Shown here: positions 5,486 through 24,430 of the stretch, in pieces | Numbering within the stretch: position 1 is the stretch's first letter | Layout: each line of letters starts with the position of its first letter | From: a virus | Lineage: Duplodnaviria > Caudoviricetes | Direction: 5' to 3' (one strand) | IMG/VR virus record: IMGVR_UViG_3300015050_001523 | Location: 160,001-224,000 of that record | DNA: 64,000 nucleotides | Notes under the pieces: generated by a model | Told to the model about the DNA's origin: nothing | What the model saw: only the letters and a program-made list of their open reading frames with translations | The model's database searches: none | Translations under genes and position numbers: made by a program

Positions 5486-6514
5486 TCATTTTAAATCTTG
5501 AACCATTTGATGAAAATATTTTCTTGCATTTTCATTTACGGCTTTGGAAACTTGGCTCCATTCTAATTTGTTGTCTTCTAACTCAAGACAACACTCTCTT
5601 GCAACATCATTGCCAATCCACTTCAAATAATGTCCAGTGCTACTAAGCTCAAGAGGATGGCCAGCTTCTTTGATTGCCTCAATTCCTTGGTTTAGCCTGT
5701 TTGGAGTTAGTGCGAACCTAACAAAATCTTCAATATTCTGAATAATTTCAGGATTTAATTGTTCTTTATGTTCTTTCGGAGATGTATTTTTATGCTTCTC
5801 TCCTTTTGTTTTAAAGAACAAGTCTGTATTTCCCCAAAATTTTCCAATTGGCTGCCAAACAATTCCTTCTCCCAAGCCAGAAATATTCCATTGTTTTGCC
5901 CAAGGACATTCCTTTTCTACTTCATCTGTCCATTTAGTAAATTGAGCTACAGCATTTTCTTTGCTTTCTGTATTATCAAAATCGACTGTGATATTCCATT
6001 GAGGAATATCAAACACAGAAAAGATATTATCTTTTTTAAACTTTTCTTCAAAAGAAGGTTTTATATCAATATAGTATTCTTTTCCACCATCTTCAATAAC
6101 CTTGAAAGCAAAAAGAACCCATTGTTTTTCTACAAGCTGGCTAATTGCCATTCCTTTTTGAATCCCGGGGCCGATCCACTCTCCATAAATAATCAAATCA
6201 TTGTTTGGATCTATTCCATAAGAGTCTCGAACTATTTTAGCTATTTCTAAAATAGAATCCTTCTTTTTTTCAACAAAAAAAGCAAATCCTGCATTGTCTG
6301 AAACTGGAGTTATTACTCTTGTTCGGCTTTGAGCAATTAGTTCTCCATCTTTTGTATGGTGGACGCTTGAATTTGTTCCATGTAATTTGATCGTCCCTCT
6401 AAAAGAAACAGGTTCTTTTATTTTGTGAATTTCAGGAACAGCTTCAGATTTATTTGTTTTGCTTATAAATCTAGAAACTTGATAAAATGCATCTATATGT
6501 GTAAATGAGTACAT
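5486..6514 (-). CDS. RNA ligase, Rnl2 family
   Basis: Motif I KLHGTN, YGEWIGPGIQKG, FAFKV, GEGIVW, FKTKGEKH. Confidence 0.85.
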   Translation of the reverse strand: MYSFTHIDAFYQVSRFISKTNKSEAVPEIHKIKEPVSFRGTIKLHGTNSSVHHTKDGELIAQSRTRVITPVSDNAGFAFFVEKKKDSILEIAKIVRDSYGIDPNNDLIIYGEWIGPGIQKGMAISQLVEKQWVLFAFKVIEDGGKEYYIDIKPSFEEKFKKDNIFSVFDIPQWNITVDFDNTESKENAVAQFTKWTDEVEKECPWAKQWNISGLGEGIVWQPIGKFWGNTDLFFKTKGEKHKNTSPKEHKEQLNPEIIQNIEDFVRFALTPNRLNQGIEAIKEAGHPLELSSTGHYLKWIGNDVARECCLELEDNKLEWSQVSKAVNENARKYFHQMVQDLK

Positions 6515-18572: not shown

Positions 18573-19079
18573 TTAATTTTTTTCAAATAGCCAATTAGAC
18601 CATTGCTCAGGGATATTTCCATCAACATAATCTGAATACATTGTTTTTACACTTGGTACAGTGGGCCTTTGAGCAATCCTCATATTCGCCTGTTGCGGTG
18701 TTCTGTTCGCTTTTTCAGTGTTGCATGTTTTGCAACATGCAACAATATTTGTCCAAGTTGTCTTGCCGCCAACAGATTTTGGAATAACATGATCAAGAGT
18801 TAGGTCTTGGCTTCGAAATTTCCCTTCACAATATTGACAAGTATTATTATCACGGCTTAAAATATTTGCACGAGAATAACGAATTCTCATTGGTTCAGCC
18901 TTTGTTGATTTTCTCAATCTAACAACAGCCGGAACATTAAATTCAACAGATGGAGAACTTATTGTTTTTTCGTAACCTTCAAGAATGTCAACTTTTCCAA
19001 GAAAATGCATGCAAATAGCACGCTGCCATGAAATTGCTTTTATCGGTTGATAACCTTGATTAAGAAGAAGAGTTTTCAT
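18573..19079 (-). CDS. HNH endonuclease (McrA-like)
   Basis: RDNNTCQYC, LTLDHVIPKSVGGKTTWTNIVACCKTCN. Confidence 0.85.
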   Translation of the reverse strand: MKTLLLNQGYQPIKAISWQRAICMHFLGKVDILEGYEKTISSPSVEFNVPAVVRLRKSTKAEPMRIRYSRANILSRDNNTCQYCEGKFRSQDLTLDHVIPKSVGGKTTWTNIVACCKTCNTEKANRTPQQANMRIAQRPTVPSVKTMYSDYVDGNIPEQWSNWLFEKN

Positions 19080-19578
19080 ATATTTCTTTCATTCCATATT
19101 TCTCTGCCTCTAAAGGCAGAGTGTAAATTGTTGTGTCTACATTAATTGATTCTTTTATAATTTCTTCAATTTTGTCCCAGGATCCACCAGCCAAGCCGGC
19201 GCCCATTCTGGGCATATGCAGGGTTGGATTCTTCCCTTCGTAAGTTTGCATTAATTCTTGGATGTTGTCAAGTCCTTTTTTTATTGCTTCATAACGAATC
19301 GGAGGAACACCATCAACTGTCCATATTCCTTCTTGACCAATTAAATTTATAACTATAATATCTTTTTCAACAGGGACAACTTGAATAGTACCTAATTCAT
19401 ATTCATTTCCATTACCCCATTTTCTATAAATTAGCTCAGGCATTCCCCATCGTTTTGATAATGCAATTACAAATCCACTTCCCCAAGCTCCTACGTTGTT
19501 GCAGCAATGAGTAATGAATTTAATTCCTTTAGCACCAACAGGATTGGTGGCATCGCCGATTACATGTTTTATAGCCAT
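19060..19578 (-). CDS. Macrodomain ADP-ribose-binding/hydrolase protein
   Basis: IGDAT, HCCNNVGAWGSGFV, MPRMGAGLAGG. Confidence 0.85.
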   Translation of the reverse strand: MAIKHVIGDATNPVGAKGIKFITHCCNNVGAWGSGFVIALSKRWGMPELIYRKWGNGNEYELGTIQVVPVEKDIIVINLIGQEGIWTVDGVPPIRYEAIKKGLDNIQELMQTYEGKNPTLHMPRMGAGLAGGSWDKIEEIIKESINVDTTIYTLPLEAEKYGMKEIYENSSS

Positions 19579-19587
19579 ATGGCTATA

Positions 19588-19986
19588 CTATACCACTAAA
19601 TCTTGCTCTTGCAAACCAGGAAGGACAAGATTTTTTATTTCCTGATATCCTTCTCCACCCAATCCTAAATAACTTTTGATAAAGTATTCTGCTTGACTAT
19701 CCATTTCAAGAACTTTTTTCAAAATTGATCTTTCTCTAATTTTATCAATTTCCATGTAATTTTTCATATATTTTACAATATCTTGAAAGAGTTTTGCCTT
19801 TTCAGGACTAATCTTGTTTGAAGGTTGTTGTGGCCTTTTGGCCATTTTTTGTCTTTCTTCTTCTTTTTGTTTTTTATATAATGCAGAATTTTCTCTGTTT
19901 TGAGTATAGTCTATAAATTCTTTTTCATCAAATTCATATTCAAATAAAATTCTTCTTATTGTTTCTCTTAATAAAGATGGCCGCAT
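19588..19986 (-). CDS. Hypothetical protein with LRETIRRILFE N-terminus
   Basis: 132-aa ORF preceded by TATTTA-N5-ATG. Confidence 0.65.
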   Translation of the reverse strand: MRPSLLRETIRRILFEYEFDEKEFIDYTQNRENSALYKKQKEEERQKMAKRPQQPSNKISPEKAKLFQDIVKYMKNYMEIDKIRERSILKKVLEMDSQAEYFIKSYLGLGGEGYQEIKNLVLPGLQEQDLVV

Positions 19987-20019
19987 ATTAGTAAATATGC
20001 GGCCATCAACAAAGAATCA

Positions 20020-20142
20020 TAGGCAAAATATATAGAGATTATTTTTAACGTGCAGCCCTTACACTTCAGACACAAAGTGTCCGTTAGGAATCGAACCTAA
20101 TCTTTTCTATTAACAGTAGATGTAATCCCTAAAAGCATCCTA
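20020..20142 (-). ncRNA. Y RNA-like (YrlA-like) RNA, copy A, with permuted tRNA-mimic module
   Basis: TAGGATG...TTGCCTA scaffold enclosing T-arm TTAGG-TTCGATT-CCTAA, loop-closed acceptor CGGACAC/GTGTCTG and D-arm; begins 3 nt after the Ro60 stop. Confidence 0.75.
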
Positions 20143-20145
20143 TAT

Positions 20146-21747
20146 TTATATTTTATTATAAATGTCTATATTGTTTATAACGTCAAGCCAATAAAATCCA
20201 TTTTTTCCATGTTTTGCAAATTGTGCAATTGTGTCCCAAACAGTATCAGAGAATCCTCCAATATTTAGAATATCATCACGATTTGGAGCCTGTGATGAAG
20301 TATAAGGTTGAATATCGATGCAAACCATTTTTGCATTTGGATTATTCTTTTTGACCATATCCCAATATTTAAGTGTTTCTGTTTGATAATGGCCTCTTGC
20401 TCGATCTCCAATCCAAGACTCATTATCTGAAACATAAATAACCAAATCAACATTTTGTTTTGTTTCTGCAAGATGTTTGACTCCAAGATAAGAGTATGTT
20501 CCTCCTCCTGGATATGCAGACAATTTTTTAGCATTTGTCATCACAGAATCTCTTGGATTCAATTGTAAATTCATTTTTAATGCTGTATCAAATGGAATAA
20601 CATTTGATTGTCTATTTTTTCTTAGAATTGCTGAAGCTACAAGAGCTGCAACATCAATGCATCTAATTGAAGATGGTTTTTTATTTCGTCCAGTAATTGA
20701 CGAACCCATTGAACCTGATACATCAGGAAACACCCAGATATTTCCTGGGATGTTTGGAATATTTTCAAGCGAAATATCAAGAGCATCTTGAAGAGCTTCT
20801 GTAATTTCAAAAGGCATACCTTTTGTTGATACAGTGTTCATATATGCAGCCATTAGCTGATATGGGAACACTTTTGCATTTTTGATATCCTCTGGATCTC
20901 TTAGTCTTTGAGCAATAAGATTTACCATTTCTTTTTTCTCAAAGACATTATGACGCATAAATGTATTTAGATTCATGCGAGTCATTGTCCATTTTGCATT
21001 TCTTGCAATTTCTTTCCAATGACTATCATTTAGTCCCAAGCTATCTAACATTTGAAATGGAAGATCTGGAATTGTTACTTCGTCCGAATTTGATGCAATT
21101 GCACTTTTGCAATTTTCATAATTTTTAATTATTTCAGGAAGATCCTTTTCTGAGGAATTAAACAGTTTTCCACTCACTTCTTTGTTCCCAATTAAATAGG
21201 AATAAAGAGCTTCCTGTTGCGCATCTTGTGGTTTTGGATGCACCATTTTAATAATGTCTGCAACTGATGGAGTATTTCCAACACTATCTTTAAAAAGACG
21301 ACTATTATTCATTCGCACAAACCACATTTTTAATTGTCGGCGCATTGCTCTTGGAAAGCTTTTTTTCCCATCAACAAGTCCAGAACGAACAAACTGAACA
21401 TGGTTTCGAACCATTTTTGTGTTGTCCATTACAGTTGGAAAAACTTCCTCATATAATGTTGGATTTCTGAATGCCAAATAAGAAAGTAAAAGAGCTGGCA
21501 TGTCTTTCATAAACGCATTTTTGCGTGAATAAATCGCAAGTTTTGCTATAAAAACTGTTCCGTCAGGTGTTTCTGAAATCTTATTTACAAGATTTTTAAC
21601 AGTTTCTAGCTGAGCATCTTCTGATGCATAATAAGTGTCTGAAATACACCCAGTTGCCGCAATTTGCGCCAACGAAGCACGATCTCCAAGATCGTATGCA
21701 AGACCACCAGCTTCATTTACAGTTAGTTTATTTGATTTATTTTTCAT
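20146..21747 (-). CDS. rsr: Ro60 / TROVE-domain RNA-binding protein (Rsr-like) with C-terminal vWA
   Basis: VNEAGGLAY, AKLAIYSRKNAFMKDMPALL, MLDSL, WTMTRMNLNTFMRH, FPYQLMAAY, MIDAS DVSGSM, GGTYS, SDNESW, GGFSD. Confidence 0.9.
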   Translation of the reverse strand: MKNKSNKLTVNEAGGLAYDLGDRASLAQIAATGCISDTYYASEDAQLETVKNLVNKISETPDGTVFIAKLAIYSRKNAFMKDMPALLLSYLAFRNPTLYEEVFPTVMDNTKMVRNHVQFVRSGLVDGKKSFPRAMRRQLKMWFVRMNNSRLFKDSVGNTPSVADIIKMVHPKPQDAQQEALYSYLIGNKEVSGKLFNSSEKDLPEIIKNYENCKSAIASNSDEVTIPDLPFQMLDSLGLNDSHWKEIARNAKWTMTRMNLNTFMRHNVFEKKEMVNLIAQRLRDPEDIKNAKVFPYQLMAAYMNTVSTKGMPFEITEALQDALDISLENIPNIPGNIWVFPDVSGSMGSSITGRNKKPSSIRCIDVAALVASAILRKNRQSNVIPFDTALKMNLQLNPRDSVMTNAKKLSAYPGGGTYSYLGVKHLAETKQNVDLVIYVSDNESWIGDRARGHYQTETLKYWDMVKKNNPNAKMVCIDIQPYTSSQAPNRDDILNIGGFSDTVWDTIAQFAKHGKNGFYWLDVINNIDIYNKI

Positions 21748-21775
21748 ATTTTTATCCTTTTAATCTTAAGGCAAC

Positions 21776-22042
21776 TCAGTAATATTTTGTTTCTGGTTGA
21801 AACTTAAATGTTTTAAATATTTCTTCTAAACATTCATCACAAATAGAAAATGAGTAACAAACACTATCACAGAGACCTTTCTGGTCTCCATTGATCTCAA
21901 TTTCTGCTAACCCATAATGGGAATTATTTTTATTTTCACAATTGACCTCATAGTGGTCGCAGCCGAATCTGATTCCGCATTTATTACAAATAATATCTGT
22001 TTCTTTTTTTGTTTCTTTAATTGGCATTTTAAGCCCTTTCAA
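21776..22042 (-). CDS. Hypothetical Zn-finger protein
   Basis: ICNKCG ... ICDEC. Confidence 0.6.
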   Translation of the reverse strand: MKGLKMPIKETKKETDIICNKCGIRFGCDHYEVNCENKNNSHYGLAEIEINGDQKGLCDSVCYSFSICDECLEEIFKTFKFQPETKYY

Positions 22043-22074
22043 AATGAATTTGGGAGATTATAAAAAATTTAAAT

Positions 22075-22200
22075 TAGGCAAAAGTGATAAAGATATTTTT
22101 TCGCGCTTTAACCAATTAAGCTATCCCTTTATATAAAGGGAACAGGACTCGAACCTGTAACTCGTCTTCCGTATAGATGTAATCCCTATCTGACATCCTA
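22075..22200 (-). ncRNA. Y RNA-like (YrlA-like) RNA, copy B, with permuted tRNA-mimic module
   Basis: Scaffold plus T-arm ACAGG-TTCGAGT-CCTGT, acceptor TCCCTTT-ATAT-AAAGGGA, TA, D-arm GCTT-AATTGGTTA-AAGC. Confidence 0.75.
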
Positions 22201-22205
22201 ACTTA

Positions 22206-22278
22206 TGCTGTGAGCGAGGGTCGAACTCGCGCTGGATAGGTTCTTAGCCTATTGTCTCTGCCATTGGACTACCACAGC
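22206..22278 (-). tRNA. tRNA with AAG anticodon (Leu), short variable loop
   Basis: GCTGTGG/TCACAGC, ATAGG-CT-AAG-AA-CCTAT, 5-nt variable loop, A73. Confidence 0.75.
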
Positions 22279-22352
22279 AAATGAAACGGGTCAAGAGAAA
22301 TATAGCCATTTCTTGTTGGGATTTGAACCCAATATATTTCTTACTTACCCTA

Positions 22353-22435
22353 TACCTGAGATGGGATTCGAACCCACATGGGCTTTCGCCAAAAGATTTT
22401 GAGTCTTCCTCCTGCTACCGTTCGGATACTCAGGC
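22353..22435 (-). tRNA. tRNA-Leu(CAA)
   Basis: GCCTGAG/CTCAGGT, CT-CAA-AA, variable arm GGC-GAAA-GCC. Confidence 0.85.
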
Positions 22436-22613
22436 AAAAATAAAAGAGAGGGCTCAAAAATTATATATAATTTTTTTGAGTTTCAAGTCATTGTGTATAT
22501 ACAACTCCCTCGCACAAAATAACTGAAAAAGGGACCTCGTAAAATCCCCTTTTCGCCTCTGACTTACCTTTTACGAGACTTATAAGTTAAATAAAGATGT
22601 TATTTTGTCTTGA

Positions 22614-22695
22614 TGCGCAAAGTGGGAATCGAACCCACACGAATAAATCACCCGGTTCTAAGCCGAGCCTGTCTACCAAATTTCAGCATATGCGC
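22614..22695 (-). tRNA. tRNA-Leu(TAG)
   Basis: CT-TAG-AA loop, long variable arm, one acceptor mismatch. Confidence 0.8.
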
Positions 22696-22704
22696 AAAAT
22701 AAAT

Positions 22705-22862
22705 TGGAGAACGAATAAGTTCGTTTTTTCAAGGTATGCCTGATCGATCAAGGCACTCTCCACCCAGCAGTATTTTCCATGTCTGCTCAATCCTTCAAGG
22801 GATTTTTCCCACTTCCCAATTAATTAGATCGGGCTTTATGTAAGGGACTTATAGGTCTTGAA
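22705..22862 (-). ncRNA. Unassigned multi-hairpin intergenic element
   Basis: Consecutive hairpins (TGCCT/AGGCA, AGCAG/CTGCT, ATCC/GGGAT, GAACGAA/TTCGTT) with no ORF, between tRNA genes. Confidence 0.3.
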
Positions 22863-22864
22863 AG

Positions 22865-22937
22865 TCCTCAAAATGGGATTCGAACCCATACTTTACAGAT
22901 TTTAAGTCTGGTGTCTCTGCCGTTGGACTACTTGAGG
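22865..22937 (-). tRNA. tRNA-Leu(TAA), short variable loop
   Basis: CCTCAAG/TTTGAGG, CT-TAA-AA, D-arm nearly identical to the AAG tRNA. Confidence 0.75.
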
Positions 22938-22943
22938 TTAAAA

Positions 22944-23105
22944 ATGGGGCGGCTATCCAGTCAAACTCCATGTGCCGCCCCCGACACCGAGTTTCATAAA
23001 CCAAGCCAATAGGGCCTTGAGCCGAAGAGCTTGGAGGATTTGGTAAACGACCGACTACGCCGATCCTCTACCAAAAATCGGATTTGCATTGCATCTCCGA
23101 GGGAT
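22944..23105 (-). ncRNA. Unassigned GC-rich structured RNA
   Basis: TCGGA/TCCGA, GAGGAT/ATCCTC, CCAAGC/GCTTGG, GGGGCGGC/GCCGCCCC helices. Confidence 0.4.
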
Positions 23106-23112
23106 TAAAATA

Positions 23113-23198
23113 TAGGCAAAAATTTGAAAAGATTGGGTATCGGCGCTTTATAGGATATCTCCTACCGATTTTTGCATGTAATCCTTTTTAGCATCCTA
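23113..23198 (-). ncRNA. Y RNA-like scaffold, copy C (hairpin cargo)
   Basis: TAGGATGC...GGATTACA...ATCTTTT...TTGCCTA with internal ATCGG-TAGGA/TCCTA-CCGAT. Confidence 0.7.
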
Positions 23199-23205
23199 CA
23201 TAAAG

Positions 23206-23280
23206 GTTGATTGACGGGACTTGCACCCGCTAAATTCTGATTCACAGTCAGAAGCCAATCTTCTTTGGTCGTCAATCAAC
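23206..23280 (-). tRNA. tRNA-His(GTG)
   Basis: G-1:C73 extended acceptor, CT-GTG-AA. Confidence 0.8.
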
Positions 23281-23289
23281 ATAAATTAT

Positions 23290-23396
23290 TAGGCAATATA
23301 ATACAAAATGTTATTGATGAATTGGCGTCCCAATTAGCGAGTCCCCCCGTTAATCGAACCCCAAACCGATTGCGATGTAATTCTGTATCCATCCTA
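23290..23396 (-). ncRNA. Y RNA-like scaffold, copy D
   Basis: TAGGATG...ATACAGAAT/ATTTTGTAT stem, TTACATC, GGTTCGATT remnant, AATTGG/CCAATT hairpin, TTGCCTA. Confidence 0.65.
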
Positions 23397-23399
23397 ATA

Positions 23400-23472
23400 T
23401 GGGAAGTCCTGGTTTCGAACCAGGCCATCAGAGGCTTCAACTCTGCGTAACTACCATGCTCACTCACTTCCC
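23400..23472 (-). tRNA. tRNA-Phe(GAA)
   Basis: GGGAAGT/ACTTCCC, TT-GAA-GC. Confidence 0.8.
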
Positions 23473-23487
23473 GAAATCATAAAAAAT

Positions 23488-23560
23488 TAGGCAAAACAAT
23501 ATAAAACTTTTGTGTAATCGCCGGTTAACAGCGAGCAGGTGTATTTCTATATTCATCCTA
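23488..23560 (-). ncRNA. Y RNA-like scaffold, copy E
   Basis: TAGGATG, AATATAGAA/TTTTATATT stem, TCGCTG/CGGCGA hairpin, TTGCCTA. Confidence 0.65.
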
Positions 23561-23569
23561 ATAAAATTT

Positions 23570-23724
23570 AAAAGCCGGTCTTTTCCCGGCTGTCAAGCAG
23601 GCTTCACTAAAAGATTCGTATCTATCTTTCACAACTCCCGGAGGTAATGGGGTTGGGCCTATTTGTGACGTTATTTGTTTTGTTTCCGCAACGCACCAAC
23701 GGAATCCTCTTTTGCGCAGGAACT
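23570..23724 (-). ncRNA. Unassigned structured RNA ending in AGCCGG-GAAAAGA-CCGGCT hairpin
   Basis: Hairpins TCCT/AGGA, TTCCG/CGGAA, TCACAA/TTGTGA, AAAGAT/ATCTTT, then terminal hairpin plus U-tract. Confidence 0.4.
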
Positions 23725-23732
23725 AAAAATTT

Positions 23733-23793
23733 TAGGCAAAAACTATAAGATGTTTTTATCAATAAATGCGATGTAATCCTATAAAGCATCCTA
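23733..23793 (-). ncRNA. Y RNA-like scaffold, copy F (minimal)
   Basis: TAGGATGC, TATAGGAT/ATCTTATA, TACATC, TTGCCTA; 61 nt. Confidence 0.7.
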
Positions 23794-23813
23794 AAATAAA
23801 ATTATAAATAAAA

Positions 23814-23875
23814 TAGGCAAAAATTTGAAAAGATTTTTTGTATTTGGTAAAAATGTAATCCTTTCTAGCATCCTA
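23814..23875 (-). ncRNA. Y RNA-like scaffold, copy G (minimal)
   Basis: TAGGATGC, GAAAGGAT/ATCTTTTC, TACAT, TTGCCTA; 62 nt. Confidence 0.7.
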
Positions 23876-23883
23876 TTAAATTA

Positions 23884-23972
23884 TGGGCAGGGAGGGATTC
23901 GAACCCCCATCGCTTACTTTATTCGGGCTAGATTTACAGTCTAGTGCAGCCATCCGTATCTGCGTCCTACCC
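23884..23972 (-). tRNA. tRNA-Tyr(GTA)
   Basis: GGGTAGG/CCTGCCC, CT-GTA-AA, long variable arm. Confidence 0.85.
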
Positions 23973-23984
23973 TAAAATTACTAA

Positions 23985-24059
23985 TCGAGGTAGCAGGATT
24001 CGAACCTGCGGTCTCTTGTTTCCAAAACAAGCGCGATAACCAGACTTCGCTATACCTCG
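23985..24059 (-). tRNA. tRNA-Pro(TGG)
   Basis: CGAGGTA/TACCTCG, TT-TGG-AA. Confidence 0.85.
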
Positions 24060-24108
24060 ATAATAATCTCCCATGTTCATTTCTATTTAATTTTCAAAAA
24101 AACAAAAG

Positions 24109-24184
24109 TACCTGATGGGGGAATTGAACCCAAAACCATCTTATCGTTCGAAGCGATAAATTCTATCCGTTAAAATAATCAGGC
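24109..24184 (-). tRNA. tRNA-Arg(TCG)
   Basis: GCCTGAT/ATCAGGT, CT-TCG-AA. Confidence 0.8.
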
Positions 24185-24197
24185 ATATTAGAAGAAG

Positions 24198-24269
24198 CGC
24201 CCGATCAAGGACTTGAACCTTGAATTTAACCTTCGCAAGATTATGTGATATCCGTTTCACTAACCGGGC
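24198..24269 (-). tRNA. tRNA-Arg(GCG)
   Basis: GCCCGGT/ATCGGGC, TT-GCG-AA. Confidence 0.8.
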
Positions 24270-24401
24270 AGAAATTTAGAAGCTTTGTAACAAGCTATAA
24301 AACCGATGCTTATAGGTTTGACGGAGACATGGATATAAGGGCTTCGGCTTTGTTCCGAAATCTTCAACCTTTGCTTTGTTTTGAGCGTCCATGATGTTTA
24401 C

Positions 24402-24430
24402 ACTATATCAGATCTAAGTAGGGGTGTCAA
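24402..24430 (-). promoter_or_regulatory. Near-consensus sigma70 promoter TTGACA-17-TATAGT heading the tRNA/Y-RNA cluster
   Basis: tgtcaa 24425-24430, actata 24402-24407. Confidence 0.7.

What the first reader, a model, noticed from the sequence alone, without database searches (positions are those of the whole stretch)
20020..23875. Phage Ro60 with an array of seven Y-RNA-like scaffolds carrying variable cargo
Seen: seven minus-strand copies (20020-20142, 22075-22200, 23113-23198, 23290-23396, 23488-23560, 23733-23793, 23814-23875) share 5'-TAGGATG and TTGCCTA-3' termini. Each has an inner 7-9 bp stem whose sequence differs between copies but keeps pairing (TAGGGAT/ATCTCTA, GATAGGGAT/ATCTTTATC, AAAGGAT/ATCTTTT, ATACAGAAT/ATTTTGTAT, AATATAGAA/TTTTATATT, TATAGGAT/ATCTTATA, GAAAGGAT/ATCTTTTC), followed by a conserved single-stranded TACAY. 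What lies inside varies from a small loop to a full tRNA mimic (61-126 nt total). They flank a Ro60/TROVE gene, and copy A begins 3 nt after its stop. Established: bacterial Rsr binds Y RNAs through a terminal helix, and Y RNAs tether Ro to effector proteins such as PNPase. Inference: this is a phage RNP platform in which one Ro60 loads interchangeable RNA adaptors. The terminal helix (GGAUG/UUGCC) differs from the canonical bulged GUCCGA/UUGAC Ro site, suggesting a co-evolved Ro/RNA class. I am not aware of a described phage locus with this many diversified copies, but could not check the literature.
Basis: partly seen in the sequence, partly recalled or inferred. Interest (0 to 1): 0.92.

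Follow-up and report, generated by a model that had tools for sequence, protein, structure and literature searches.

The report
Seven phage Y RNAs beside Ro60
A 322-kb jumbo phage carries a Ro60 gene with seven small Y-RNA-like genes threaded through a tRNA array; this is a real but fairly ordinary example of the known Ro60/Y-RNA partnership, and neither the copy number nor the altered end helix is exceptional.

Summary
Exactly seven minus-strand units in the 322.5-kb genome share the scaffold, all within 3.9 kb around a full-length Ro60 (TROVE + vWA) gene.

The scaffold is a 6-bp terminal stem, an AUGC//UUG internal loop, a covarying second stem, UACAY, then variable cargo. A covariance model finds 46 full-length units and two contig-end fragments in 15 related phage or metagenome loci. 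All lie on the Ro60 strand, with strong compensatory changes.

The units are YrlA/YrlB-type Y RNAs:
- Rfam YrlA matches copy B, but below its threshold.
- A and B are tRNA mimics conserved across the phage clade.

The novelty claims do not hold:
- AUGC, UACAU and UUG are shared with canonical bacterial Y RNAs beside Ro60s 44-51% identical.
- Only the last three pairs of the terminal stem differ (CGA/UCG to AGG/CCU), and CGG/CCG intermediates occur in bacteria.
- Bacterial Ro60 loci also carry tandem arrays of about 4-7 YrlA-like genes.

Ro60 binding and expression could not be tested.

Verdict: new member of a known kind, of moderate interest. Its main use is for annotation, because Rfam's threshold misses the whole clade.

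The parts
20018..20144 (-). Y RNA A (127 nt). YrlA-type tRNA mimic: T arm, covarying hairpin, divergent D-like arm. Lies in the 3' UTR of Ro60.
   Evidence: Fold. R1 49.7 bits. Orthologues after Ro60 in L004, L006, L007, L008, L010, L011 and L003, with covarying T arm and hairpin.
22073..22202 (-). Y RNA B (130 nt). YrlA-type tRNA mimic with T arm, hairpin and classical D arm. Starts 2 nt after tRNA-Leu(aag).
   Evidence: Rfam YrlA 35.7 bits, E 3e-5, below the gathering score of 69. R1 33.8 bits. Orthologues in L004, L005 and L009.
23111..23200 (-). Y RNA C (90 nt), branched hairpin cargo.
   Evidence: Folds. R1 48.6 bits.
23288..23398 (-). Y RNA D (111 nt), long hairpin cargo with a T-loop-like GGUUCGAUU. 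Starts 1 nt after tRNA-Phe.
   Evidence: Fold z = -3.3. R1 31.2 bits.
23486..23562 (-). Y RNA E (77 nt), small hairpin cargo. Variant stem-2 top GAAA-UACAC.
   Evidence: Fold. R1 54.1 bits.
23731..23795 (-). Y RNA F (65 nt), YrlB-like, loop only.
   Evidence: Fold. R1 66.7 bits.
23812..23877 (-). Y RNA G (66 nt), YrlB-like, loop only. Starts 6 nt after tRNA-Tyr.
   Evidence: Fold. R1 76.9 bits. Rfam YrlB 23.4 bits, E 0.26.
20146..21747 (-). Ro60/Rsr orthologue, 533 aa, TROVE ring plus vWA domain. A DVSGS (DxSxS) motif is read from the translation as the likely MIDAS site.
   Evidence: Pfam. phrog_850. Full-length matches to 2NVO, 9KOP/9L5Y, 9NEN and 1YVP. Translation. 44-51% identical to bacterial Ro60.
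21776..22042 (-). Small Cys-rich ORF (88 aa) directly upstream of Ro60. Function unknown.
   Evidence: ORF list. No Pfam, PHROG or NCBIfam match. A small ORF of 71-92 aa occupies the same position in L004, L007, L008, L009 and L013. Sequence similarity was found only in L007.
22205..24269 (-). tRNA array in which units B-G are interleaved: Arg, Arg, Pro, Tyr, Phe and four Leu, plus an uncalled tRNA-His-like gene.
   Evidence: ARAGORN and Rfam. The same tRNA order flanks Ro60 in relatives.
24402..24430 (-). Promoter-like site (TTGACA-17-TATAGT with TG) upstream of the array.
   Evidence: Consensus scan, 11 of 12 matches. Not evidence of function.
19976..20007 (-). Strong terminator-like hairpin (14-bp stem, then a T-rich tail) about 10 nt after unit A.

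Best explanation
The seven units are genes for YrlA/YrlB-type Y RNAs, the non-coding partners of bacterial and phage Ro60.

Shown here:
- Each RNA closes its 5' and 3' ends in a 6-bp stem.
- An asymmetric internal loop follows, with invariant AUG(C) on the 5' strand and UUG on the 3' strand.
- Then come a 7-9-bp second stem, single-stranded UACAY and a variable module.

Inferred by homology with YrlA, Yrn1 and phiLo Yrl1/2:
- The stem-1/AUGC//UUG module docks on the outer surface of the phage Ro60 ring.
- The variable module (tRNA mimic in A and B; hairpins or loops in C-G) engages other RNA-handling proteins or gates the Ro60 cavity.
- The phage encodes no PNPase, RtcB or CCA-adding enzyme, so such partners would be host enzymes or phage RNA ligases.

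Inferred from the layout: the RNAs sit 1-15 nt from tRNA genes or in the Ro60 3' UTR, so they are probably cut out of tRNA-Y RNA-Ro60 precursor transcripts by tRNA-processing nucleases.

The likely role is RNA surveillance or repair, or capture of a host exoribonuclease, during infection by a phage that relies on its own large tRNA set.
For: Scaffold and chance:
- Exactly 7 scaffold matches in the 322-kb genome, all in this locus and on one strand.

Homology to Y RNAs:
- Rfam YrlA matches copy B across the T arm, hairpin and D arm.
- The Rfam consensus has the same order of parts: stem 1, AUGCu, stem 2, CUAc ... cUuG, stem 1'.

Family and covariation:
- Model R1 finds 48 matches, 46 full-length and 2 cut by contig ends, all on the Ro60 strand. 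They comprise 27 in nine Ro60-selected relatives, 6 strong ones in L013 and 8 in four new loci from a DNA-pattern scan.
- On the 34-row alignment of window plus the nine relatives, 92.9% of cells pair and 11 of 13 pairs show double changes. No shuffle of 500 reaches this, and slid controls give 33-53%.
- The near-fixed G-U pair in stem 2 works only in RNA of this strand.

Conserved modules and context:
- A-type and B-type tRNA-mimic modules are conserved with compensatory changes.
- The relative L003 has the same architecture with the canonical GCGAAUGC.
- 15 of 20 bacterial loci with related Ro60 carry YrlA above Rfam's threshold, with AUGC, UACAU and UUG in the same places.
- Ro60 is full-length.
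- RtcB sits upstream of Ro60 in L004, L008 and L009.

Published precedent: PMC4201824; PMC12135203 (Ro60-Yrl-PNPase complexes in phage phiLo).
Against: - No expression data. No RNA run holds the locus, so discrete transcripts and their ends are unproven.
- Ro60 binding is not testable with these tools.
- The published Ro-binding motif GNCGAAN0-1G is not literally present (UAGGAUG). In phiLo each CGAA nucleotide contributed 3-4-fold to affinity.
- No unit reaches an Rfam gathering score.
- The covariation alignment was fitted to the model, which inflates pair counts somewhat.
- Terminator-like hairpins inside the array (for example 23573-23591) fit poorly with one long precursor.
Confidence: 0.8

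Rival explanations
1. Orthogonal Ro/RNA class. The AGG/CCU terminal helix is a specificity switch co-evolved with this phage clade's Ro60, so that phage Ro60 and phage Y RNAs pair only with each other and not with host Rsr and YrlA.
For: - AGG/CCU or a close variant is kept in every unit of loci whose Ro60 is 52-90% identical to the window's.
- The 44% relative L003 and the bacterial loci use CGA/UCG.
- In phiLo, single changes in CGAA lowered affinity 3-4-fold (PMC12135203).
Against: - The unpaired invariant bases (AUGC, UUG, UACAU) are the same in both groups.
- The differing positions are base-paired and change in a compensatory way.
- CGG/CCG intermediates occur in Neisseria and Phycisphaerales.
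- More diverged units in L011 vary the stem further: GUAG, CAG, AAG.
- No Ro60 residue change was linked to the RNA change. This was not tested.
Confidence: 0.12
2. Ro60-independent stable RNAs or processing punctuation of the tRNA array. The closed-end hairpins would only guide RNase cleavage or stabilise precursors, and they sit near Ro60 by synteny alone.
For: - Units lie 1-15 nt from tRNA ends.
- Other structured, unclassified RNAs also fill gaps in the array.
- Contig L110 has three units and ten tRNAs with no TROVE gene in 5.2 kb.
Against: - The scaffold is homologous to Y RNAs that Rsr binds in three bacteria and one phage.
- Unit A sits in the Ro60 3' UTR, away from any tRNA, and is conserved there in seven relatives.
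- L110 ends right after its B-type unit, where Ro60 follows in the relatives.
- Every contig of 7.9 kb or more that carries units also has Ro60.
Confidence: 0.05
3. A DNA-level repeat (mobile-element ends, recombination or homing sites), or cis-acting terminators or attenuators, rather than RNA genes.
For: - Short conserved inverted termini.
- An HNH endonuclease gene is conserved nearby.
- T-rich runs often follow the 3' strand.
Against: - Compensatory changes keep RNA pairing while the sequence drifts.
- G-U pairs make the structure strand-specific.
- All 48 R1 matches are on one strand relative to Ro60.
- The interiors hold T and D arms, which are RNA modules.
- No target-site duplications or dispersed copies exist elsewhere in the genome.
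Confidence: 0.03

Closest known systems
Bacterial and phage YrlA (Rfam RF02553; Chen et al. 2014, PMC4201824)
   Same: - Encoded on the Ro60 strand within 4 kb.
- Stem 1, AUGC internal loop, stem 2, (C/U)UACAU junction, UUG before the 3' strand of stem 1.
- Permuted tRNA-like domain with T arm, hairpin and D arm in units A and B.
- Several paralogues per locus.
   Different: - The last three pairs of stem 1 are AGG/CCU instead of CGA/UCG, so the published GNCGAAN0-1G motif is absent.
- Scores are below Rfam's gathering threshold (35.7 against 69).
- A's D arm is divergent.
Short Y RNAs: Salmonella and M. smegmatis YrlB, D. radiodurans Yrn2
   Same: Units C, E, F and G keep the Ro-type scaffold but carry only a hairpin or a loop, like the long-hairpin second Y RNA found in each studied bacterium.
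   Different: - There are four of them here.
- There is no real sequence match to RF02565 (23.4 bits against 97), a model whose known members come from Salmonella serovars.
Thermus phage phiLo Ro60 with Yrl1 and Yrl2 (PMC12135203; PDB 9KOP, 9L5Y)
   Same: A phage-encoded Ro60 with Y-RNA-like genes beside it. It is the only phage case with binding, structure and a host PNPase complex shown.
   Different: - phiLo has two Yrls, both with CGAA, upstream of Ro60 and not inside a tRNA array.
- Its Ro60 is only distantly similar (phmmer E 2e-13).
Tandem YrlA-like arrays beside bacterial Ro60 (seen here in Neisseria sp., Blastocatellia and Haloferula loci L152, L164, L176, L182)
   Same: - Four to seven scaffold units in a row with differing interiors.
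- Ro60 is 46-48% identical to the window's.
- Some MAG loci also have tRNA arrays in front of YrlA and Ro60 (L113, L114, L120).
   Different: - Canonical CGA/UCG or CGG/CCG stem 1.
- Units are mostly head-to-tail on one side of Ro60 rather than scattered among tRNA genes.
Vertebrate Y RNAs (RF00019)
   Same: - Ends pair in a stem that carries the Ro site, with a variable interior loop that binds other proteins.
- UUG lies on the 3' strand next to a one-base bulge.
   Different: - No Rfam match at E up to 10.
- The GGUCCGA/UUGACU site is absent.
- There is no Pol III or La context.

Membership tests
YrlA-type Y RNA (Rfam RF02553; Chen et al. 2014) | Encoded near (within 4 kb) a Ro60/Rsr orthologue, on the same strand | tested here: met
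   All seven lie on the Ro60 strand, from 3 nt downstream to 2.1 kb upstream.
YrlA-type Y RNA (Rfam RF02553; Chen et al. 2014) | Terminal stem from the 5' and 3' ends, an internal loop, then a second stem | tested here: met
   Folds. Covariation in both stems across 34 units. Same order of parts as the Rfam consensus.
YrlA-type Y RNA (Rfam RF02553; Chen et al. 2014) | GNCGAAN0-1G (CGAA) motif near the 5' end | tested here: not met
   The window units read (A/U/G)UAGGAUG. CGA is replaced by AGG with compensating CCU. AUG is kept.
YrlA-type Y RNA (Rfam RF02553; Chen et al. 2014) | tRNA-like domain (T arm, hairpin, D arm) in at least one RNA per genome | tested here: met
   B aligns to the model's T arm, hairpin and D arm at high posterior probability. 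A has a T arm, a covarying hairpin and a D-like arm, conserved in relatives.
YrlA-type Y RNA (Rfam RF02553; Chen et al. 2014) | Score at or above Rfam's gathering threshold (69 bits) | tested here: not met
   Best is 35.7 bits for B. Control bacterial loci score 69-99 bits.
YrlA-type Y RNA (Rfam RF02553; Chen et al. 2014) | Bound by Ro60, and accumulates as a discrete small RNA | not testable with these tools
   No RNA runs hold the locus. No RNA-protein tool is available.
YrlB (Rfam RF02565) | Match to the family model at or above 97 bits | tested here: not met
   G scores 23.4 bits, E 0.26. The similarity is limited to the shared scaffold.
Ro60 / TROVE protein | TROVE (HEAT-repeat ring) plus a C-terminal vWA domain, full length | tested here: met
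   PF05731 34.9 bits (cut-off 23) and PF25045 55.2 bits (cut-off 27.7). End-to-end alignment to 2NVO, 9KOP and 1YVP. A DVSGS (DxSxS) motif is read from the translation.
Vertebrate-type Y RNA (RF00019) | Bulged GGUCCGA/UUGACU helix, or a match to the family model | tested here: not met
   No RF00019 match at E up to 10 in 19500-24400.

The most novel reading that the evidence does not exclude
The AGG/CCU stem-1 variant is a specificity switch that makes this jumbo-phage clade's Ro60 and Y RNAs orthogonal to any host Rsr/YrlA system. The seven different interiors would each recruit a different host or phage RNA enzyme, giving the phage a private, multi-headed RNP adaptor set matured by the tRNA-processing machinery.
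Probability: 0.1. Interest if true: 0.65.

Novelty: new member of a known kind. Interest (0 to 1): 0.35.

Why it matters
- Annotation. A clade of freshwater and other environmental jumbo phages carries 3-7 Y RNA genes per Ro60 locus, and Rfam's thresholds miss all of them. A clade-aware covariance model would recover them, along with the many sub-threshold paralogues beside bacterial Ro60 genes.
- The Ro-binding module. Natural variation across these loci shows which positions are fixed (AUGC, UUG, UACAU) and which merely pair. That guides mutagenesis.
- Biology. Y RNAs interleaved with tRNA genes, beside RtcB in relatives and RNA ligases in this genome, fit the view that phage Ro60 RNPs serve tRNA/RNA repair or capture of a host nuclease. 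A seven-member paralogue set would be a convenient panel for asking what Y RNA interior modules bind.
- It is not a new kind of system.

Tried and rejected
- Megablast of the locus against GenBank phages: no match.
- MAFFT alone put the 3' strand of stem 2 out of register. I built R1 from six short units with a hand-set structure and let cmalign realign the rest.
- IMG/VR scan for the 16-base 5' pattern: 91 stretches, about the number I estimated for chance. None of the 91 matched R1.
- R1 found nothing in the whole 392-kb record of L003, whose units are the canonical type. The whole records of L004 and L011 were not held.
- Genome-collection scan with the single protein found nothing. The alignment query worked.
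- blastn of the four unclassified gap RNAs against all relatives: no conservation. The tRNA-His-like gap matched L005, apart from one short weak self-match in the genome.
- Bacterial locus L012 showed no recognisable Y RNA.
- My loose regex for generalised scaffolds over-calls in AT-rich phage DNA: 5 false hits in 13.6 kb of the window. I therefore lean on Rfam E-values for the bacterial array counts.
- No RNA-seq run holds the locus.
- I did not map Ro60 RNA-contact residues onto the clade, because no YrlA-Rsr complex structure is available to number them reliably.

Full report
**Setting.** The window is bases 160001-224000 of a 322,518-bp IMG/VR virus record (33.6% G+C, about 93% complete by CheckV), that is, a jumbo phage. 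The window holds 28 tRNA genes, all on the minus strand. The finding lies in one of these tRNA arrays.

**Observation.**
- TAGGATG and TTGCCTA are each at chance frequency as bare words. However, 7 of 8 and 7 of 11 occurrences are the paired ones in this 3.9-kb stretch.
- The composite pattern occurs exactly seven times in the whole genome.
- Each unit folds as terminal stem, internal loop, second stem, then variable interior.
- Across 46 family members, pairing of the ends holds for six positions at about 80-95% and falls to the chance level (37%) at the seventh.

**The protein.** ORF 20146-21747 (minus, 533 aa) is a full-length Ro60.
- Pfam TROVE and vWA_Ro60 both score above their cut-offs.
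- It aligns end to end with D. radiodurans Rsr (2NVO), phiLo Ro60 (9KOP), and human and Xenopus Ro60.
- The translation contains DVSGS, which I read as the DxSxS MIDAS motif.
- It is 50-52% identical to many bacterial Ro60s.

**What the units are.**
- Rfam gives sub-threshold matches: copy B to YrlA (35.7 bits, E 3e-5, gathering score 69) and copy G to YrlB (23.4 bits).
- The YrlA alignment covers B's T arm, hairpin and D arm with high confidence. It mis-registers the stems, laying B's inner stem on the model's stem 1.
- Read properly, the Rfam consensus (cggCga, AUGCu, uggGgaa, CUAc ... cUuG, ucGccg) has the same order of parts as the window units (UAGG, AUGCuuu, stem 2, UACAU ... UUG, CCUA).
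- The 44%-identical relative L003, a 392-kb phage, has at least three units, and a probable fourth, upstream of its Ro60. They have the same architecture and the canonical GCGAAUGC. Its first unit shares A's interior almost base for base in the D-like arm.

**Family and covariation.**
- I fetched contigs for Ro60 homologues of 52-90% identity.
- I built covariance model R1 from six short units.
- R1 finds the seven window units and nothing else in the window or genome above noise.
- It also finds 27 matches in nine relatives, one of them cut off by a contig end, and six strong ones in L013.
- In contigs found independently by a DNA pattern it finds twelve matches. Three are in L105, the same contig as L008, and one is cut by a contig end, leaving eight full-length units in four new loci.
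- That makes 46 full-length units and two contig-end fragments across 15 related loci.
- All are on the Ro60 strand.
- On the 34-row alignment, 92.9% of cells pair and 11 of 13 pairs show changes on both sides. No shuffle of 500 reaches the observed values, and sliding the partner drops pairing to 33-53%.
- The alignment was fitted to the model, which favours pairing. The size of the effect and the plain listing of rows leave little doubt.
- A near-fixed G-U pair in stem 2 would be an A-C mismatch on the other strand, so the structure is an RNA of this strand.

**Interiors.** Two types are conserved across the clade.
- The A-type lies after Ro60. It has a T arm, a covarying hairpin and a GUGUAAUGG-type D-like arm.
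- The B-type lies upstream, after the Leu tRNAs. It has a T arm, a hairpin and a classical D arm.
- Both are YrlA-style permuted tRNA mimics.
- D has only a T-loop-like stretch. C, E, F and G are short, like YrlB and Yrn2.
- In relative L110, ARAGORN even calls one unit's interior a tRNA-Ile.

**Context.**
- The gene order is conserved across relatives: tRNA Arg-Arg-Pro-Tyr-Phe-His-Leu(3-4), B-type unit, RtcB in L004, L008 and L009, a small ORF, Ro60, units, a 121-132-aa ORF, a 172-aa protein, HNH, then tRNA Met-Ser-Ser-Gln and onward.
- In the window, six units moved into the upstream tRNA array and only A remains downstream.
- Units begin 1-6 nt after tRNA-Phe, tRNA-Leu and tRNA-Tyr.
- A promoter-like site lies upstream of the array at 24402-24430. 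The strongest terminator-like hairpin follows A.
- The layout suggests precursor transcripts cut by tRNA-processing nucleases. This is inference. M. smegmatis YrlA and YrlB are processed from one precursor, and its YrlA is an RNase P substrate (PMC4201824).
- The phage genome has no RtcB, RNase PH/PNPase or CCA-adding enzyme, but it has three RNA-ligase-family matches.

**The controls that set the novelty.** I fetched 80 bacterial loci whose Ro60 is 44-51% identical.
- Of 20 sampled, 15 carry YrlA above Rfam's threshold at 69-99 bits.
- Their ends read ...GCGA-AUGC-stem 2-(C/U)UACAU ... (C)UUG-UCGC....
- AUGC, UACAU and UUG are thus common to canonical Y RNAs and the window units. Only three base pairs of stem 1 differ, and they differ in a compensatory way.
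- Intermediates exist: CGG-AUGC//UUG-CCG in a Phycisphaerales MAG (L136), and CGG-AUGC with UAG-CCG in Neisseria (L152, L164).
- More diverged phage units in L011 vary the stem again.
- On copy number, Rfam at E below 0.01 reports five YrlA-like units in a row in L176, six in L152 and four in L182. Further short units appear with my scaffold scan. That scan gives a mean of about 3.8 units on the Ro60 strand against about 0.4 on the other strand over the 80 loci.
- Chen et al. already reported 355 putative YrlAs in 254 bacteria and 22 phages, listing all where several lay within 4 kb of rsr.
- Related phage loci here have 3-6 units within 6 kb.
- Seven is the top of the range I saw for phages, but it is not out of family.

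**Mechanism.**
- Shown: a conserved, covarying, strand-specific RNA scaffold homologous to YrlA/YrlB; linkage to Ro60; tRNA-mimic modules.
- Inferred: Ro60 binds the stem-1/AUGC//UUG module. This rests on the motif's position in YrlA, protection data for Yrn1, and the phiLo cryo-EM and mutagenesis (PMC4201824, PMC12135203).
- Also inferred: the interiors bind other factors, and maturation uses tRNA nucleases.
- Not known: which partners, and whether the RNP promotes repair, degradation or nuclease inhibition. In phiLo, the complex attenuated host PNPase.

**Literature.** I found no paper describing this clade, the AGG variant, or Y RNAs interleaved in a jumbo-phage tRNA array. The jumbo-phage survey notes only that a few such phages have a TROVE protein with a tRNA-like partner.

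**Verdict.** This is a correct and careful observation of genuine, unannotated Y RNA genes. The class is known, the altered helix is ordinary covariation, and the copy number is within what related bacterial loci show. Interest is moderate to low.

Noticed in passing
window 23205-23281 (-): An uncalled, non-canonical tRNA-His(GUG)-like gene sits between units D and C. It forms a cloverleaf with a long acceptor stem, an odd D arm and a UGCAAGU T loop. ARAGORN and Rfam both miss it. It aligns to the called tRNA-His of relative L005 and occupies the His slot of the conserved tRNA order.
   Followed up: partly
window 22437-22611, 22697-22863, 22938-23112, 23561-23732 (-): Four 167-175-nt intergenic stretches in the tRNA/Y RNA array have no Rfam match. 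Two fold well below shuffled controls (z about -3.5 and -3.8). Several end in terminator-like hairpins with U runs. blastn finds none of them in the relatives. Function unknown.
   Followed up: partly
window 22282-22345 (-): A 64-nt hairpin encloses a perfect T-arm-like stem-loop (GGGUUCAAAUCCC) between tRNA-Leu(caa) and tRNA-Leu(aag). It may be a tRNA remnant or a mini tRNA-like RNA.
   Followed up: no
window 18573-19986 (-); L004-L010, L013, L109: Three genes stay in synteny downstream of Ro60 and its Y RNAs in most relatives. They are a 132-aa ORF, a 172-aa protein (phrog_335 'phosphatase', with a weak match to the DarG macrodomain) and a 168-aa HNH endonuclease. An HNH homologue (36% identity) also lies beside the bacterial Ro60 of L012. 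They may belong to the same functional module.
   Followed up: partly
L004:4371-5609, L008:613-1866, L009:3540-5375: RtcB RNA ligase lies just upstream of Ro60 in three relatives, echoing the Salmonella rsr-yrlBA-rtcBA operon. The L009 copy is interrupted by an intein. The window's genome has no RtcB but has three RNA_ligase (PF09414) matches, one of them at window 5831-6394.
   Followed up: partly
L152, L164 (Neisseria), L176 (Blastocatellia), L182 (Haloferula): Bacterial Ro60 genes are flanked by tandem arrays of about 4-7 YrlA-like units, of which Rfam's gathering threshold accepts none to three per locus. Standard annotation therefore appears to undercount Y RNA paralogues.
   Followed up: partly
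L113, L114, L120 (MAG contigs labelled Pyrinomonadaceae or Blastocatellia): Ten or more tRNA genes within 2.5 kb lie directly upstream of YrlA and Ro60, the same layout as in the phages. These contigs may be phage or prophage DNA binned into MAGs.
   Followed up: no
L110:2305-2428 (-): In this Y-RNA scaffold unit, ARAGORN calls the interior a tRNA-Ile(gat). It shows how close the cargo can come to a whole tRNA.
   Followed up: partly
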